Source of the DNA: Promethearchaeota archaeon
GTDB taxonomy: Archaea > Asgardarchaeota > Lokiarchaeia > Sigyniarchaeales > SOKP01
Assembly (NCBI GenBank): GCA_019058365.1
Contig: JAHPZE010000015.1
Coordinates: forward strand, 33,873 to 97,872
Direction of reading: 5' to 3'
Length of the DNA stretch: 64,000 bases
In this document: piece by piece, positions 37,102-41,481 of the stretch
Layout of the letters: every line of letters begins with the position of its first letter
Position numbering within the stretch: the stretch's first letter is position 1
The notes under the pieces: generated by a model
Database searches by the model: none
Told to the model about the DNA's origin: nothing
What the model saw: the letters and a program-made list of their open reading frames with translations, nothing else
Position numbers and translations under genes: made by a program

Positions 37102-37956
37102 CTAGAGATAATCAAATAAAAATTCTAAACTTGGCAAATCAAAAGGTTTTAAAATATAACCATCTGCCATTGTTTCTTCCATTTTTTTCTCTATTTTAGG
37201 AAGTGGTACAGCGGTTAAGTAGAAAACGGGCGTTTCTTTTAGACTCATATGAGATTTTATTTCCTTACAAATATCATATCCACTAACATCTGGTAAAATA
37301 ATATCTAACAATATTAATTTTGGTCTTGTCACATATAATTCTTCAATTCCTTTAGATCCTGTAAGAACTCCTTTAAAGGAATACCCTTTACTTTCAAAAT
37401 AATTCTTTAATAAAAGGATCGTAGATAAATCATCTTCTATAAGCAAAATATCATATTGGGAAGGTTTTTCTTTTCTCTCTTCTAATTTAGTTACAAATTT
37501 ACTCTCCAATTGCTGTGTTTCATTTAATACATTATTTATAATTGATTTAATATCATCGTTTATCTCATTTTTATGTTTTTCAAGTAATAATTGAGAAAAT
37601 CCTTTAATAGTAGTCAATTTTCCTTTTACTTCATGAACTAAGTCTGAATCATTGGCAATTCCTAGGTGTGTAAGTATTTTTCCACCAAATTTTGTTTTTT
37701 CATTTATAAAATAATTAACACTTTCTCTTATTAATTTAGAAAATGAAGAAAATTTATGTGTATCCATAAATTCTTCCCATTTTTTTTCAGTTTCAGTTGA
37801 TACATAAACGGAAATTCTTTTTTTATCAGCATAATAATCTTTTTCACCTTCTTTCCATCTTAGGAATCCCTTAGTGGTTTTTCCCTGCCAAATTGCTTGC
37901 TTTCCCGTCTCTTGCTCAAATTGTACCATTTCCTTAGTTTTTTGATCACTATTCAA
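37102..37956 (-). CDS. response regulator with RHH-like DNA-binding domain, His-containing DHp and C-terminal REC
   Basis: KKRISVYVS.ETEKKW...FSSFSKLIRESV (RHH pattern); LVHEVKGKLTTIKGFSQLL (H-box); ILLIEDD, LLDIILPD, LTA and KPF. Confidence 0.85.
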   Translation of the reverse strand: MNSDQKTKEMVQFEQETGKQAIWQGKTTKGFLRWKEGEKDYYADKKRISVYVSTETEKKWEEFMDTHKFSSFSKLIRESVNYFINEKTKFGGKILTHLGIANDSDLVHEVKGKLTTIKGFSQLLLEKHKNEINDDIKSIINNVLNETQQLESKFVTKLEERKEKPSQYDILLIEDDLSTILLLKNYFESKGYSFKGVLTGSKGIEELYVTRPKLILLDIILPDVSGYDICKEIKSHMSLKETPVFYLTAVPLPKIEKKMEETMADGYILKPFDLPSLEFLFDYL

Positions 37957-38158: not shown

Positions 38159-39652
38159 TCATAAGTCAAAACGATTGACTAAACCTCGCTTCAAGAACAT
38201 TTCTTTTAATTCTGAAAGAACGTCTCCTCTAGGTGAAGTTGATCTAATATTGCCACTTATTGAGATTTTTGGAGGTGGGGGTGGAGGTTTAAGCGAATCT
38301 AAGCTAATTTCTTCCTGTTTCATTGGTGGTGCATTCGGTGGAGTAGAGGATATCTTTGGTAATTGAGTTTTTGATTTTAGAAAAGGTTTAGTTTTTTCTA
38401 ATTTCTCAGTTGTGAGTTTTCCATCTTTAACTAGTTCTTTTTCTTGTAATTTTAAAGATGGATGTGTTGGCAGTGGCTTTGGAGGTCCTGAGCCTTTTTT
38501 ATATTTTTTTTTCTTTTGACTCTCATTAAATTTAGCCTTTTTCTTACCTTTTTTAACACTTTCACTAGATTTTGAGATAGGTGAGATAGAATCATTTTTT
38601 ACTTTTTCAAAAGGAACTGAAAAAAGAGATTGTGATAGATCTGATGGATTCAATCTAAGTATAGCCCTTTTAATTTCTGAAAGTTCAGATACGAATTTAT
38701 CCATTAGTTTCAGATTGAGATCTAAAATCTTCTGAAATTTTTCGTCAATATCAGGTATCACAATCTCTTTACCTTTCTCCTCTTTTTCCTTTGAAAAAAT
38801 ATTTTTAATACTCTTAACTATCTCTGGTTTATTAGAATAATAATTATAAATACTTGTGGGAATAATCTCAAAATTCCAAGGATTTTCAGATTTTTTAAAA
38901 ATCTCCGAGATTTTATCTGCAAGGTATTCAAGTTTAATTTGAAAATCTGGATCTTCTCTGATATCAAAATCTGCCTTATTCAATAAAATTACAATAAAAG
39001 GATTTTCCTTTAAGAATTCGAGAATATCTGTTATATCTTTTAGATATTTTACCGCATTTAAATATCTAACATCATCTTGGGAATCAATAACAAAAATTAT
39101 AATATCCACTTGGATGAAAAATTGTTCTGGAGAGGCAAGATATTCATCTATATGATCTTTTTGACCACCTAGATCCCAGAGAATCAAATCTAATTTATCA
39201 GATTGATATTCTTCTATGTTTGCCCCAATTGTAGGTTCTAAATTAGCTATGTCATTATAATTATAATCTTTAATTAATCTATTTATTAAAGATGTTTTCC
39301 CAGCGAAATCTAAACCTGCAACGACAATTTTCAATTTAGGTTTTTTTAAATATAATTTTCTTTTACTCCATGCATTTGAAATTAAGGTTGAAGCAATTAG
39401 AGCATTCTTTAAAGTAGTTCTATTAATAGAATATTTTTCAATCAGATTTTCAAATCCATAATTTTCTAATTTAGCGAGATCGCGTAAATTTGTGATATCA
39501 ATTTTTCTAAATTTCTCAATCTCTTCTTTTTTTATTCCCTTTAATTTACTTATTTCTAAACCTAATACATCTTTCAGGGAGGTAGGATAATAATCTAAAT
39601 CTAAAAATCGATCAGAGAAATATTTAATAACCCTTTTTGCTGACTCTGACAT
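38159..39652 (-). CDS. Arf-like GTPase with N-terminal HhH-like domain and Lys/Pro-rich C-terminal tail
   Basis: GLDFAGKTS, EPTIG, WDLGGQ and NKAD; N-terminal ISKLKGI; tail KPPPPPPK...RGDVLSELKEMF. Confidence 0.88.
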   Translation of the reverse strand: MSESAKRVIKYFSDRFLDLDYYPTSLKDVLGLEISKLKGIKKEEIEKFRKIDITNLRDLAKLENYGFENLIEKYSINRTTLKNALIASTLISNAWSKRKLYLKKPKLKIVVAGLDFAGKTSLINRLIKDYNYNDIANLEPTIGANIEEYQSDKLDLILWDLGGQKDHIDEYLASPEQFFIQVDIIIFVIDSQDDVRYLNAVKYLKDITDILEFLKENPFIVILLNKADFDIREDPDFQIKLEYLADKISEIFKKSENPWNFEIIPTSIYNYYSNKPEIVKSIKNIFSKEKEEKGKEIVIPDIDEKFQKILDLNLKLMDKFVSELSEIKRAILRLNPSDLSQSLFSVPFEKVKNDSISPISKSSESVKKGKKKAKFNESQKKKKYKKGSGPPKPLPTHPSLKLQEKELVKDGKLTTEKLEKTKPFLKSKTQLPKISSTPPNAPPMKQEEISLDSLKPPPPPPKISISGNIRSTSPRGDVLSELKEMFLKRGLVNRFDL

Positions 39653-39883: not shown

Positions 39884-40567
39884 ATGGTTGAAAGGAAACA
39901 GGTTGAGGATACTGTAGAGAATATAATTTCAGATACTTATAATAGCGTGCAATCAATTTTAGAAAAAAATCCTTTCATAATAATGATTGGGAAATATGAT
40001 CATACGTTAGGACCTAGAACTATATACACATCCGTTAACATTGAATTGGAACAACAATTTATTAGAAATCTTTTAAGAGATGCTTTAAATACTAAAAATA
40101 AATTTGTAATTTTAGATTTCAATTATTTTTATTCCCAAATCTATAAGATTGAAATTGAGGACAATAATGCTCGAGGTAAAAAACAATTATACTCTATCAT
40201 TTTACTTCGTGATATTGAATATCCATTAATTCCTGTTATACATTTTAGAAAAATTGAAATGATGTTTCGTAAAATTGGTGAAGATAGTATTTTATCAGAT
40301 GACAAAAAAGTATTTGAAGTTTTTTTTGAAGAATTAAGCGAGATATATATAAAAAAAAATGAAATTCTCCCATTAGAAAAATTCAATTTGCAAATTCGTA
40401 GTGGACTAAATACAATTCAAGGTTTTTGTGAATTGATATTAGAAGATAAAAAGGAGAAGAAGAATCTATCTGATGAGAATATATTAAATTTTATGGAAAT
40501 GATTCTAGATTCTTGTAAAGATATAATTATATCACTTGAAAAATATTTAAAAAATTCCTTAAAATAA
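39884..40567 (+). CDS. uDENN/longin-like domain fused to a degenerate HisKA (pseudo-DHp)
   Basis: IMIGKYDHTLGPRTIY and ARG..QLYSIILL; C-terminal FNLQIRSGLNTIQGFCELILE. Confidence 0.65.
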   Translation: MVERKQVEDTVENIISDTYNSVQSILEKNPFIIMIGKYDHTLGPRTIYTSVNIELEQQFIRNLLRDALNTKNKFVILDFNYFYSQIYKIEIEDNNARGKKQLYSIILLRDIEYPLIPVIHFRKIEMMFRKIGEDSILSDDKKVFEVFFEELSEIYIKKNEILPLEKFNLQIRSGLNTIQGFCELILEDKKEKKNLSDENILNFMEMILDSCKDIIISLEKYLKNSLK

Positions 40568-40602: not shown

Positions 40603-41481
40603 TTGATTAAAAAAAAGATTGTCTTTACCGGCCCACCAGATGTAGGAAAAACAACGATCAAAAAGGTATTTTTTGATCATACTAGTCCAGTTTCACTTTT
40701 AAAGAGCCCCTTACAACCTTCAAGGGGCATTAACTCAAGAGTGTATTCAACATTCAATTCTCATTTAGGAATTTTTGATTTAGCAGGCCAAGAGAACAAG
40801 AATTGGTTTTCTAATAAAAGTAAAGATGTATTTACTGAAAGTAATATCATAATTTGTGTTTTTGACATCAGAAATACATTGGAATCAATAATTCAATTCT
40901 TAATGGGGGTATACAAATTGAAAAAAGAACTACATCTACATTCGTGTGAGATCGTTGCATTTTTACACAAAATAGATCTGAGAAGTAATCCCTATGTTAA
41001 TCAAAAATTAAAAATCATTCAAGATTTTATAACAATTCAACATCCACATGGGAAGAATTTTAAAATATATAAGACATCACTTACAATTAATTATTTTTAT
41101 AACACTTATTATATAATTTCGGAAATTTTAGACTTAATTTACCAAAGAAATCTCAGTTCTGTTGATGATCAAGAATTTCAAAAATTGAAAAAAGAATTAT
41201 CTATTATCTTTAATTTGAAAATCAATCTTAGATATAATATAACGGATCTAGTTCATAAATTTAATTTCAATTCTGAAGATTTAAAAAATCATATAAAAAG
41301 ACTAGAAAAATTAGGATTTATTAAGATTTTTGATAAATACCAATTCTTTAAATTAACTGATAGCGCAAATTATTTTAAAGTTGGATTAGAAAAGGAATTT
41401 ACTATTATAGATGAAACACATTTCAATAAAAGAATTGAATTATTTCATATTTTCCTTTGTTTTAAGGAAAAAGAGGTATGA
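40603..41481 (+). CDS. Rag/Gtr-like GTPase with C-terminal winged-helix domain
   Basis: GPPDVGKTT, QPSRG, FDLAGQE and HKID; ITDLVHKF...LKNHIKRLEKLGFI...FKLT. Confidence 0.85.
   Translation: MIKKKIVFTGPPDVGKTTIKKVFFDHTSPVSLLKSPLQPSRGINSRVYSTFNSHLGIFDLAGQENKNWFSNKSKDVFTESNIIICVFDIRNTLESIIQFLMGVYKLKKELHLHSCEIVAFLHKIDLRSNPYVNQKLKIIQDFITIQHPHGKNFKIYKTSLTINYFYNTYYIISEILDLIYQRNLSSVDDQEFQKLKKELSIIFNLKINLRYNITDLVHKFNFNSEDLKNHIKRLEKLGFIKIFDKYQFFKLTDSANYFKVGLEKEFTIIDETHFNKRIELFHIFLCFKEKEV

What the first reader, a model, noticed from the sequence alone, without database searches (positions are those of the whole stretch)
38159..39652. Arf-like GTPase with a basic, polyproline and WH2/VASP-like tail: possible link to Asgard actin
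Seen: after the G domain and a coiled segment come a Lys-rich stretch (KKGKKKAK...KKKKYKK), Pro-rich motifs (GPPKPLP, TPPNAPP, KPPPPPPK) and a terminal amphipathic helix RGDVLSELKEMFLKRGL. Established: basic region + polyproline + WH2 (R..LL..I....L[KR]K) is the layout of WASP-family actin regulators; polyproline binds eukaryotic profilin; Asgard archaea encode actin and profilin. Inference: a GTPase-fused actin regulator that could be a cytoskeletal output of the island.
Basis: partly seen in the sequence, partly recalled or inferred. Interest (0 to 1): 0.75.

Follow-up and report, generated by a model that had tools for sequence, protein, structure and literature searches.

The report
Loki GTPase with proline tether, docking helix
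A Loki-type Asgard archaeon encodes an Arf/Rag-like switch protein whose long floppy lysine- and proline-rich tail ends in a strongly conserved short helix; the layout recalls eukaryotic actin-assembly factors, but the helix is not a recognisable WH2 motif and its binding partner, possibly the archaeal actin machinery, is still unknown.

Summary
ORF 38159-39652 (-) encodes a 497-aa protein with an N-terminal HhH/SAM-like helical domain, an intact Arf/Rag-like G domain and one long helix. A ~140-aa disordered tail follows, carrying a polybasic patch, Pro motifs and a terminal helix.

The tail is not junk. LKPPPPPPK and the terminal helix are as conserved as the G domain, while the linkers between them drift. 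The spacing from the polyPro tract to the helix is nearly fixed.

The helix motif (R-x-x-[IV]-[ILM]-x-E-L-[KR]-x-[MILV]-F-x-[KR]-[KR]) is portable. It also ends a paralogous GTPase and a 147-aa coiled-coil/polyPro protein found in every Lokiarchaeia genome sampled. The cultured MK-D1 has an ortholog, QEE16620.1.

WH2 membership fails: no Pfam or PDB profile match, and the "LKR" seen here exists only in the six closest orthologs.

Links to actin are circumstantial:
- rare fusions of the small protein's head with gelsolin- and profilin-like domains;
- one adjacency to MKD1-2DGel.

The Lokiactin co-IP "ARF GTPase" of L. ossiferum is a different, tail-less protein.

The gene's own neighbours are a folliculin-type longin, other GTPases and two-component genes.

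This scan noted the same family before on other DNA. Verdict: a real, undescribed docking cassette; an actin role is possible but unproven.

The parts
38159..39652 (-). Whole gene, 497 aa: Arf/Rag-like GTPase with tail (P0001)
   Evidence: Open frame. There are 161 homologs, with full-length coverage in Lokiarchaeia MAGs.
39350..39652 (-). N-terminal helical domain, aa 1-101, (HhH)2/SAM-like; it replaces the usual Arf N-terminal amphipathic helix
   Evidence: AF2 on 24 sequences gives pLDDT 85.6. Weak fold matches are to the Dpo4 thumb, the Rad51 N-domain, RNAP alpha-CTD and SAM domains: Foldseek E about 0.3 and VIA Z 7-7.8. Pfam HHH_5 scores 9e-4 on ortholog P0338.
38843..39340 (-). G domain, aa 105-270: P-loop GLDFAGKTS, switch I PTIGANIEE, WDLGGQ, NKAD, PTSIY
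   Evidence: Pfam Arf and Gtr1_RagA match. The motifs are invariant in A1. The nearest solved structure is LokiRagO 8yl2, E 3.9e-14, 31% identity.
38654..38749 (-).
   Evidence: AF2 helix 302-333 with pLDDT about 70. Majority-residue fraction is 0.72.
38231..38653 (-). Disordered tether, aa 334-474
   Evidence: pLDDT is below 50. Linker columns have majority-residue fractions of 0.28-0.47 and vary in length.
38495..38557 (-). Polybasic patch, aa 366-386 (KKGKKKAK ... KKKKYKK)
   Evidence: K+R make up 19-27% of the tail in all 32 orthologs.
38468..38488 (-). GPPKPLP, aa 389-395 (family consensus GPPKRL)
   Evidence: G389 and P391 are nearly invariant.
38324..38344 (-). TPPNAPP, aa 437-443 (family consensus PPxAP)
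   Evidence: P442 is nearly invariant. The island's majority-residue fraction is 0.47.
38267..38293 (-). LKPPPPPPK polyproline tract, aa 454-462
   Evidence: P456 and P457 are invariant; L454 and P460 are nearly so. Majority-residue fraction is 0.83.
38177..38230 (-). C-terminal docking helix, aa 475-492: R-x-x-[IV]-[ILM]-x-E-L-[KR]-x-[MILV]-F-x-[KR]-[KR]
   Evidence: R, E, L and F are invariant in 24 tails from three protein families. hhalign against the 147-aa family matches only here, E 1.7e-5. AF2 predicts a helix at 475-488.
39884..40567 (+). Context: divergently transcribed folliculin-type longin (invariant GP, near-invariant Arg) with a His-less DHp-like end
   Evidence: Pfam Folliculin 2e-4. 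It is the adjacent gene in about 24 of 33 ortholog loci. Alignment.
37102..37956 (-). Context: receiver-domain protein immediately downstream on the same strand
   Evidence: Pfam Response_reg 1.8e-16. It is conserved downstream in most close ortholog loci.
40603..41481 (+). Context: second small GTPase following the longin
   Evidence: Pfam Ras and Arf match. It is syntenic in most loci.

Best explanation
The protein is a working Arf/Rag-like GTPase that carries a tethered ligand. After the G domain and one stalk helix comes a flexible arm of about 140 residues. The arm holds a polybasic patch, which probably contacts acidic membrane or protein surfaces. It ends in a two-part cassette at fixed spacing: a polyproline tract (LKPPPPPPK) and, about 13 residues later, a docking helix. 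The helix has one hydrophobic face (I/V, I/L/M, L, M/L, F), with invariant Arg and Lys/Arg on that same face. The same helix ends two other Lokiarchaeial families, so all three probably dock onto one shared partner. I commit to the following mechanism. The GTPase is switched by the neighbouring folliculin-type longin and the two-component genes. It sets where and when the arm presents the cassette, and the cassette recruits the Lokiactin machinery. The helix would bind the actin monomer groove as arcadin-2 or a WH2 helix does, or bind a gelsolin- or profilin-like protein; the polyproline tract would engage a profilin-like domain. Shown here: the architecture, the conservation, the portability of the helix and the synteny. 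Inferred: membrane contact, GTP control of the arm, and above all the identity of the partner.
For: The G motifs are intact and conserved. The tail is disordered but has conservation islands equal to the G domain, at near-constant spacing. The docking motif is shared with an own-genome paralog (C51, 413 aa) and a 147-aa coiled-coil/polyPro protein (C35:16603-17052). A profile built from the motif hits 33/33 and 3/3 genomes of the two Lokiarchaeia families sampled in the phylum-wide search, and 2/3 of one other Asgard family. The MK-D1 ortholog QEE16620.1 keeps PPPPPP plus the helix on a much shorter linker. Actin-side hints: the head of the 147-aa family occurs fused to Ras-like GTPases together with gelsolin-like domains (P0252 at Pfam 0.008; P0253 at 3.7e-4). 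P0253 also carries polyPro tracts and a C-terminal part that matches this genome's profilin ORF at E 2e-5. In MK-D1, QEE15846 (polyPro plus LRGGMTEELKTLFSK) lies directly after the experimentally characterised MKD1-2DGel QEE15845 (PMC9433394). No SH3_1 or WH1 domain was found in this genome, while profilin-like ORFs were. Archaeal precedent: arcadin-2 has a folded head, an unstructured linker and a conserved C-terminal helix that binds the actin groove (PMC5173319).
Against: No WH2 or other actin-binding profile matches the helix, and the LKKT-type element is not conserved. Loki profilins were reported not to bind a VASP polyproline peptide (PMC8410842). In L. ossiferum the Lokiactin co-IP enriched a different, tail-less GTPase (UYP48373.1). 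The 147-aa docking-helix protein there is inferred to be GNAMCCOK_02219. It is in the proteome table but absent from all co-IP rows held as text, which reach down to a log2 ratio of -1.06. The target's own conserved neighbours are signalling genes, not cytoskeletal ones. The MK-D1 gelsolin adjacency is not reproduced in this genome. The gelsolin and profilin assignments in the fusions fall below Pfam's cut-offs. Full-length orthologs occur in only about 37 of 151 Lokiarchaeia genomes, so the protein is accessory.
Confidence: 0.35

Rival explanations
1. The docking helix binds a non-actin protein shared by the three families. One candidate is the helical head of the 147-aa protein and of the paralog, which would give self-association or hub formation among these proteins. 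Another is a GTPase regulator such as a longin or roadblock protein. The polyproline tract would then be only a stiff spacer.
For: In the paralog and the 147-aa family, head and helix always travel together; the profile of the small protein covers positions 17-145 at the C-termini of paralog GTPases P0298, P0371 and P0393. Most carriers of the cassette are GTPases. The target's neighbours are longin and GTPase genes. The 147-aa protein is not among the Lokiactin co-IP rows held.
Against: No partner has been identified. hhalign finds no head-like region in the target itself. The fixed polyPro-to-helix spacing and the strongly conserved PPPPPP suggest that the proline tract is itself read.
Confidence: 0.3
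2. The helix is an intramolecular latch. It folds back on the protein's own G domain, stalk or N-terminal domain in one nucleotide state, giving autoinhibition as the formin DAD does on the DID. It has no partner in trans.
For: The helix is predicted with moderate confidence (pLDDT about 71) in the monomer model. The shorter linker of the MK-D1 form would still allow folding back. The resemblance to a formin DAD (hydrophobic helix followed by a basic cluster) rests on my own recollection.
Against: The same helix ends a 147-aa protein that has no G domain. The contacts of the model could not be inspected. The long, variable linker fits reach in trans better.
Confidence: 0.13
3. The tail is a membrane anchor: the polybasic patch plus a terminal amphipathic helix replace the missing N-terminal Arf helix, as in K-Ras4B/Rit-type C-termini or the MinD membrane-targeting sequence.
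For: No N-terminal amphipathic helix is present; an HhH/SAM-like domain sits there instead. The tail is 19-27% K+R in all orthologs. The helix ends in basic residues.
Against: The hydrophobic moment of the helix is low, 0.02-0.25 on the Eisenberg scale, with Arg and Lys/Arg lying on the hydrophobic face. R, E, L and F are invariant across families that share less than 30% identity elsewhere, which is atypical for lipid-binding helices. The conserved polyproline is left unexplained.
Confidence: 0.12
4. It is a true WH2-domain nucleation-promoting factor, homologous to WASP/WAVE.
For: The order basic - polyPro - helix holds, and the window's own sequence fits a loose WH2 pattern (VLSELKEMFLKRG).
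Against: The loose match is confined to 6 of 32 orthologs and the strict match occurs in none of 76 sequences. There is no Pfam WH2 hit. The protein ends 6 residues after the helix, with no central/acidic region.
Confidence: 0.03

Closest known systems
Asgard Arf-related (ArfR) and Rag-like small GTPases (bioRxiv 10.1101/2024.02.28.582541; LokiRagO, PDB 8yl2)
   Same: The G domain carries Arf-type motifs (WDLGGQ, NKAD). Pfam Arf and Gtr1_RagA score above their cut-offs, and the nearest solved fold is LokiRagO.
   Different: It has a 100-aa HhH/SAM-like N-terminal domain instead of an amphipathic helix. It has no roadblock domain. It has a 160-aa tail with the polyPro plus docking-helix cassette, which the ArfR preprint does not mention: term search only, no occurrence of 'proline' or 'C-terminal extension'.
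WH2 domain with upstream proline-rich region (WASP/WAVE/WIP; Pfam PF02205)
   Same: The order is basic patch, polyproline, then a short helix with an R-x-x-hydrophobic-hydrophobic-x-x-hydrophobic start, at the end of a disordered region.
   Different: There is no profile match. The LKK[TV] element is absent from the family consensus. There is no central/acidic region or GBD, and the GTPase is fused in cis rather than acting in trans.
Ena/VASP (EVH1 - Pro-rich - GAB/FAB - coiled coil)
   Same: A polyproline tract lies a short, fixed distance before an amphipathic helix, and a helical segment lies elsewhere in the chain. The role of the VASP loading site is my recollection of Ferron et al. 2007, which was not read here.
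   Different: No EVH1/WH1 domain was found in the genome. The domain order is reversed, and no GAB/FAB similarity was detected.
Arcadin-2 of Pyrobaculum calidifontis (crenactin regulator; PDB 5LY3; PMC5173319)
   Same: It is an archaeal protein with a folded head, a non-conserved unstructured linker and a small conserved C-terminal helix. In arcadin-2 that helix binds the actin hydrophobic groove with a Kd of 31 nM.
   Different: Arcadin-2 is encoded in the actin (arcade) cluster and this gene is not. Arcadin-2 has no GTPase and no polyproline.
Unnamed Lokiarchaeial 147-aa coiled-coil - polyPro - docking-helix family (own copy G000:C35:16603-17052; L. ossiferum and MK-D1 copies in L120 and L119)
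   Same: It has the same terminal motif preceded by polyproline: hhalign E 1.7e-5, alignments.
   Different: It is stand-alone, with no G domain, and its head is not detectable in the target. It is universal in the Lokiarchaeia sampled, whereas the target is patchy.

Membership tests
Arf family / Asgard ArfR small GTPases | Ras-superfamily G domain with G1-G5 motifs, including the Arf-type WDxGGQ | tested here: met
   GLDFAGKTS, PTIGANIEE, WDLGGQ, NKAD and PTSIY are all invariant or nearly so. Pfam Arf scores 79.8 bits against a cut-off of 22.3.
Arf family / Asgard ArfR small GTPases | N-terminal amphipathic (often myristoylated) helix coupled to the nucleotide switch | tested here: not met
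   Residues 1-101 form a separate five-to-six-helix domain (pLDDT 85.6) with HhH/SAM-like fold matches. There is no Gly2.
Rag/Gtr GTPases | Gtr1/RagA-type G domain | tested here: met
   Pfam Gtr1_RagA 1.6e-20, 73.9 bits against a cut-off of 22. The top fold hit is LokiRagO 8yl2.
Rag/Gtr GTPases | C-terminal roadblock domain for dimerisation | tested here: not met
   After residue 270 the model has only helices and disorder, with no beta strands.
WH2 domain (PF02205) | Match to the family profile | tested here: not met
   No WH2 hit at E<=10 for the 173-aa tail, the last 43 aa, or any of 24 tails. HMMER filters may hide very weak hits.
WH2 domain (PF02205) | N-terminal amphipathic helix with a hydrophobic pair and a third hydrophobic residue one turn later | tested here: met
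   [IV]-[ILM]-x-x-L is conserved in all 24 tails, preceded by an invariant Arg.
WH2 domain (PF02205) | Conserved LKK[TV]-type motif after the helix | tested here: not met
   The strict pattern occurs in none of the 76 sequences of A1-A3. A loose pattern occurs only in the 6 closest orthologs, because the position after the invariant Phe is Leu there; elsewhere it is V, I, K, R, Q, A, S or G.
WH2 domain (PF02205) | Binding to the barbed-end groove of G-actin | not testable with these tools
   No multimer prediction or binding assay was available.
WASP-family nucleation-promoting factors | Central and acidic (CA) region that engages Arp2/3 | tested here: not met
   The protein ends 6 residues after the helix (VNRFDL).
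Ena/VASP | EVH1 (WH1) domain | tested here: inconclusive
   PF00568 was not found in the genome at E<=0.01, but the control search hit nothing anywhere. No WH1 hit on the protein itself.
Arcadin-2-like actin sequesterers | Folded head, unstructured linker and conserved C-terminal helix | tested here: met
   the arcadin-2 description is from PMC5173319.
Arcadin-2-like actin sequesterers | [quoted passage not shown] | not tested
   The peptide chain is shorter than the 20-aa limit of the PDB sequence search. No actin gene lies in the window's neighbourhood.
Lokiarchaeial docking-helix cassette (unnamed) | C-terminal R-x-x-[IV]-[ILM]-x-E-L-[KR]-x-[MILV]-F-x-[KR]-[KR], usually after a proline-rich tract | tested here: met
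   Alignment A3; hhalign E 1.7e-5; the profile scores 54.5 bits on the target.

The most novel reading that the evidence does not exclude
The cassette is a prokaryotic actin-assembly or actin-sequestering module fused in cis to a small GTPase. The docking helix would bind the barbed-end groove of Lokiactin, and the polyproline tract would load a profilin-like protein. This would be the missing GTPase-to-actin link (a nucleation, elongation or sequestration factor) in the closest archaeal relatives of eukaryotes. It would be either convergent with, or a forerunner of, the WASP/VASP layout.
Probability: 0.2. Interest if true: 0.9.

Novelty: new variant of a known kind. Interest (0 to 1): 0.55.

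Why it matters
Asgard archaea have actin, profilins and gelsolins. However, filament nucleation machineries "have yet to be discovered in Asgard archaea" (PMC9433394). The 2026 Nature paper on crawling L. ossiferum says actin regulation must be more intricate than gelsolin plus profilin, and it points to an ARF GTPase in its co-IP (PMC13716822).

A conserved, portable polyproline plus docking-helix cassette on GTPases is a concrete, cheap-to-test candidate for such wiring. A 40-50-residue peptide and the cultured MK-D1 ortholog QEE16620.1 are enough to start.

If the partner turns out not to be actin, the cassette still defines an undescribed interaction hub. That hub would link Arf/Rag-like GTPases, a folliculin-type longin and two-component signalling in Lokiarchaeia.

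Tried and rejected
- **Pfam on the tail.** WH2, RPEL, thymosin and the rest of Pfam were scanned against the 173-aa tail, the last 43 aa and 24 tails at E<=10. Nothing relevant appeared, only stray SAP and CSTF2_hinge hits.
- **PDB sequences.** A profile of the helix found nothing at E<=10.
- **ESM Atlas.** There was no usable hit for the tail. For the 147-aa protein only unnamed Asgard clusters came up.
- **Recalled ELM WH2 regex.** It gave 0 of 32, but my memory of its first term is probably wrong, since real WH2s carry Arg there. I replaced it with explicit core patterns.
- **MIM1/MIM2 (Vps4 MIT) reading.** Considered by eye and set aside, because the invariant Glu sits where MIM1 needs Arg. 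This was not tested further.
- **Was the Lokiactin co-IP 'Arf' of L. ossiferum this family? No.**
  - UYP48373.1 was identified by exact sequence and mass (38.12 kDa).
  - It is a G domain plus an alpha/beta C-terminal domain without a tail, 30% identical in the G domain.
  - L. ossiferum has no ortholog of the target at E<=1e-20.
- **Homology of the stalk helix to the head of the 147-aa family.** I suspected it by eye, but hhalign did not find it.
- **Fused forms.** The 'longer' search gave only 3 hits, and its candidate cap makes it weak. The exhaustive representative search found GTPase fusions above all.
- **QEE15846 homolog next to this genome's 2DGel.** None was found.
- **SH3_1 and WH1 domains in the genome.** None was found.
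- **Earlier scan notes** call the module 'nearly universal in Asgard'. My profile finds it in Lokiarchaeia and one other family only.
Full report
**What is there.** The window is AT-rich (about 27% G+C). It lies in a 4.74-Mb, 54-contig Lokiarchaeia genome that has six actin-family genes and profilin-like ORFs.

The ORF 38159..39652 on the minus strand is open, starts with ATG and gives 497 residues. Pfam places an Arf/Gtr1_RagA-type G domain at residues 98-270. All G motifs are present and invariant among orthologs. The nearest solved structure is the Lokiarchaeal RagA-like GTPase 8yl2, followed by Arl, Arf and Gtr1.

**Anatomy.**
- An AlphaFold2 model on 32 orthologs gives a helical N-terminal domain (1-101), the G domain, one long helix (302-333), a stretch of pLDDT below 50 from 334 to 473, and a terminal helix at 475-488 with pLDDT about 71.
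- Folded alone, the N-terminal domain reaches pLDDT 85.6.
- It matches (HhH)2/SAM-like five-helix domains only weakly: Foldseek E about 0.3, and VIA Z 7-7.8, which is within the range of common helical arrangements. One ortholog gives a sub-threshold Pfam HHH_5 hit.
- The protein therefore lacks the Arf N-terminal amphipathic helix, and it lacks the Rag roadblock domain.

**The tail is selected, not drifting.** Homologs number 161, all from Lokiarchaeia/Promethearchaeota metagenomes, and most cover the full length.

| Segment (32 diverse orthologs) | Majority-residue fraction |
|---|---|
| G domain | 0.79 |
| LKPPPPPPK | 0.83 |
| Terminal helix | 0.75 |
| Linkers in between | 0.28-0.47 (with indels) |

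The distance from the polyproline run to the ELK of the helix is 19 residues in most sequences. This is the signature of short linear motifs on a disordered tether, read at a fixed geometry.

**The helix is a portable module.**
- A six-frame scan of the window's own genome finds the motif at the extreme C-terminus of three proteins only:
  - the target;
  - a 413-aa paralogous Arf/Rag-like GTPase (C51);
  - a 147-aa protein (C35:16603-17052) made of a conserved helical head, a coiled coil, a Gly/Pro-rich run (PPPPPPPP) and the same helix.
- The small protein defines a family of its own, with more than 190 hits and no Pfam domain.
- Twenty-four tails from the three families share invariant R, E, L and F in the pattern R-x-x-[IV]-[ILM]-x-E-L-[KR]-x-[MILV]-F-x-[KR]-[KR].
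- Profile-profile comparison of the GTPase and small-protein alignments matches only this segment, E 1.7e-5.
- A degenerate DNA pattern for the motif hits 103 of 161 Lokiarchaeia genomes, against about a dozen hits for the reversed control.
- A profile of the motif hits 33/33 and 3/3 genomes of the two Lokiarchaeia families sampled in the phylum-wide search. It also hits 2/3 of one other Asgard family and almost nothing in about 120 other Asgard genomes.
- An exhaustive profile search with the small protein shows that its whole length is built into the C-termini of the paralog GTPases. Its linker plus helix is built into target-type GTPases.

**Distribution.**
- Full-length orthologs (E<1e-100) occur in about 37 of 151 Lokiarchaeia genomes.
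- Shorter orthologs (about 400 aa, 38-40% identity) occur in a sister family.
- One of these is QEE16620.1 of the cultured Promethearchaeum syntrophicum MK-D1. It keeps QPPPPPPKKK and R-N-D-V-M-S-E-L-R-K-V-F on a much shorter linker.
- Ca. Lokiarchaeum ossiferum has no ortholog at E<=1e-20, but it does have the small protein.

**Is it a WH2? No, by every test available.**
- Pfam WH2 matches none of the tails at E<=10.
- The motif profile finds no PDB sequence.
- The first half of the helix does follow the WH2 helix pattern. The LKK[TV] element does not exist in the family.
- The window's 'F-L-K-R' gives a loose match only because a variable position is Leu in the six closest orthologs. Elsewhere that position is V, I, K, R or Q, and in the sister families A, S or G.
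- There is no central/acidic region.
- The helix has a low overall hydrophobic moment, because the invariant Arg and the Lys/Arg sit on its hydrophobic face. This argues for protein docking rather than lipid insertion.

**Links to actin.**

*A literature lead did not hold up.* The L. ossiferum crawling paper (bioRxiv 10.1101/2025.11.30.690169; Nature version PMC13716822) reports an 'ARF GTPase' enriched in a Lokiactin co-IP.
- I identified that protein (GNAMCCOK_04696 = UYP48373.1) by position, exact sequence and mass: 329 aa, 38.12 kDa.
- It is a G domain plus an alpha/beta C-terminal domain without any tail, and it is only 30% identical to the target's G domain.
- Its homologs in this genome lie at C16 and, within the window, at 56643-57641.
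- The L. ossiferum small protein is inferred from gene order to be GNAMCCOK_02219. It is in the proteome table but in none of the co-IP rows held, which reach down to log2 -1.06; 841 rows are cut. This is mild evidence against stable actin binding.

*Positive but indirect evidence.*
- Rare proteins join a Ras-like GTPase, a gelsolin-like domain (Pfam 0.008 and 3.7e-4, just under the cut-off) and the head of the small protein.
- One of them, P0253, adds polyproline tracts, a degenerate helix and a C-terminal part that matches this genome's profilin ORF at E 2e-5.
- In MK-D1 a 697-aa membrane-anchored protein with polyPro and LRGGMTEELKTLFSK (QEE15846) directly follows MKD1-2DGel (QEE15845), a characterised actin-severing protein (PMC9433394). 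This adjacency is not seen in the window's genome.
- No SH3_1 or WH1 domains were found, so profilin-like domains are the only canonical polyproline readers detected.
- However, Loki profilins were reported not to bind a VASP peptide.
- Arcadin-2 of Pyrobaculum gives an archaeal precedent for a head-linker-terminal helix protein whose helix binds the actin groove.

**Gene context.** In about 24 of 33 ortholog loci three features recur:
- the gene is transcribed divergently from a longin gene, which is followed by a second small GTPase;
- a receiver-domain gene follows the target on the same strand;
- PAS histidine kinases and Rag-like GTPase pairs surround them.

The longin has an invariant Gly-Pro and a near-invariant Arg. 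This is the signature described for folliculin/SMCR8/NPRL2-type GAP longins, whose Asgard GTPase partners are an open question (PMC12290439). The context therefore says 'signalling GTPase' and gives no cytoskeletal hint.

**Reading.** The protein is best described as a GTPase with a tethered, two-part docking cassette shared by three Lokiarchaeial families.
- I commit, at about one chance in three, to the actin machinery as the target of the cassette.
- Nearly as likely is a non-actin protein partner, including self-association with the head of the sister families.
- Less likely are an intramolecular latch or a membrane anchor.
- Homology to WH2/WASP is very unlikely.

**Literature and earlier notes.** I found no paper that describes the cassette, in three full-text searches and ten papers read or term-searched.

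Earlier notes of this scan had already flagged the same GTPase family and the small protein on other genomes, with the same verdict on WH2. I re-tested those claims here rather than relying on them.

Noticed in passing
window 56643-57641 (-): A 332-aa Rag/Arf-like GTPase (Pfam Gtr1_RagA 3.9e-24). It is 43% identical (tblastn E 5e-79) to UYP48373.1, the 'ARF GTPase' enriched in the Lokiactin co-IP of L. ossiferum. The best own-genome match is at C16:132598-133518 (48% identity).
   Followed up: partly
window 39884-40567 (+): A longin protein with invariant G43-P44 and near-invariant R45 (the GP motif plus Arg finger of FLCN/SMCR8/NPRL2-type GAP longins) and a His-less DHp-like C-terminus. It is the conserved divergent neighbour of the target and a candidate GAP for it or for the next GTPase.
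   Followed up: partly
G000:C35:16603-17052 (L083:3601-4044, -): A 147-aa protein with a conserved helical head, a coiled coil, a Gly/Pro-rich run with PPPPPPPP, and the same terminal docking helix. Its family has no Pfam domain and was present in all Lokiarchaeia genomes sampled, including L. ossiferum and MK-D1.
   Followed up: yes
G000:C51:16545-17810 (L084:3573-4814, +): A 413-aa paralogous Arf/Rag-like GTPase ending in the same docking helix but without a long polyPro run. This form, about 415-430 aa long, occurs in nearly all genomes of the window's taxonomic family.
   Followed up: partly
L121:775-2868 (MK-D1, QEE15846): A 697-aa protein with polyPro, an internal LRGGMTEELKTLFSK and a C-terminal transmembrane helix. 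It is encoded directly after MKD1-2DGel (QEE15845), a characterised actin-severing gelsolin.
   Followed up: partly
L120:738-1358 (L. ossiferum, UYP45915.1): An Elf1-like zinc-ribbon protein encoded next to the small docking-helix protein. It matches GNAMCCOK_02218 by mass (24.0 kDa), which is enriched in the Lokiactin co-IP (log2 1.36, adjusted p 0.034). The Elf1-like neighbour also occurs beside the small protein in MK-D1 and near it in this genome.
   Followed up: no
P0253 (758 aa, metagenomic Lokiarchaeota): A multidomain fusion: Ras-like GTPase, gelsolin-like domain, head of the 147-aa family, polyPro, degenerate docking helix, a second polyPro, a profilin-like domain and zinc ribbons.
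   Followed up: partly
window 26869-53889: A dense signalling island. It holds at least five PAS or other histidine kinases, three receiver proteins and, besides the target, five more small GTPases (40603, 46973, 48292, 52435, 53335).
   Followed up: partly
G044:C207:26445-27173: In one related genome the copy of the target carries six in-frame stops (2 TAG, 4 TAA). It may be a pseudogene, which would fit the patchy distribution of the family.
   Followed up: no
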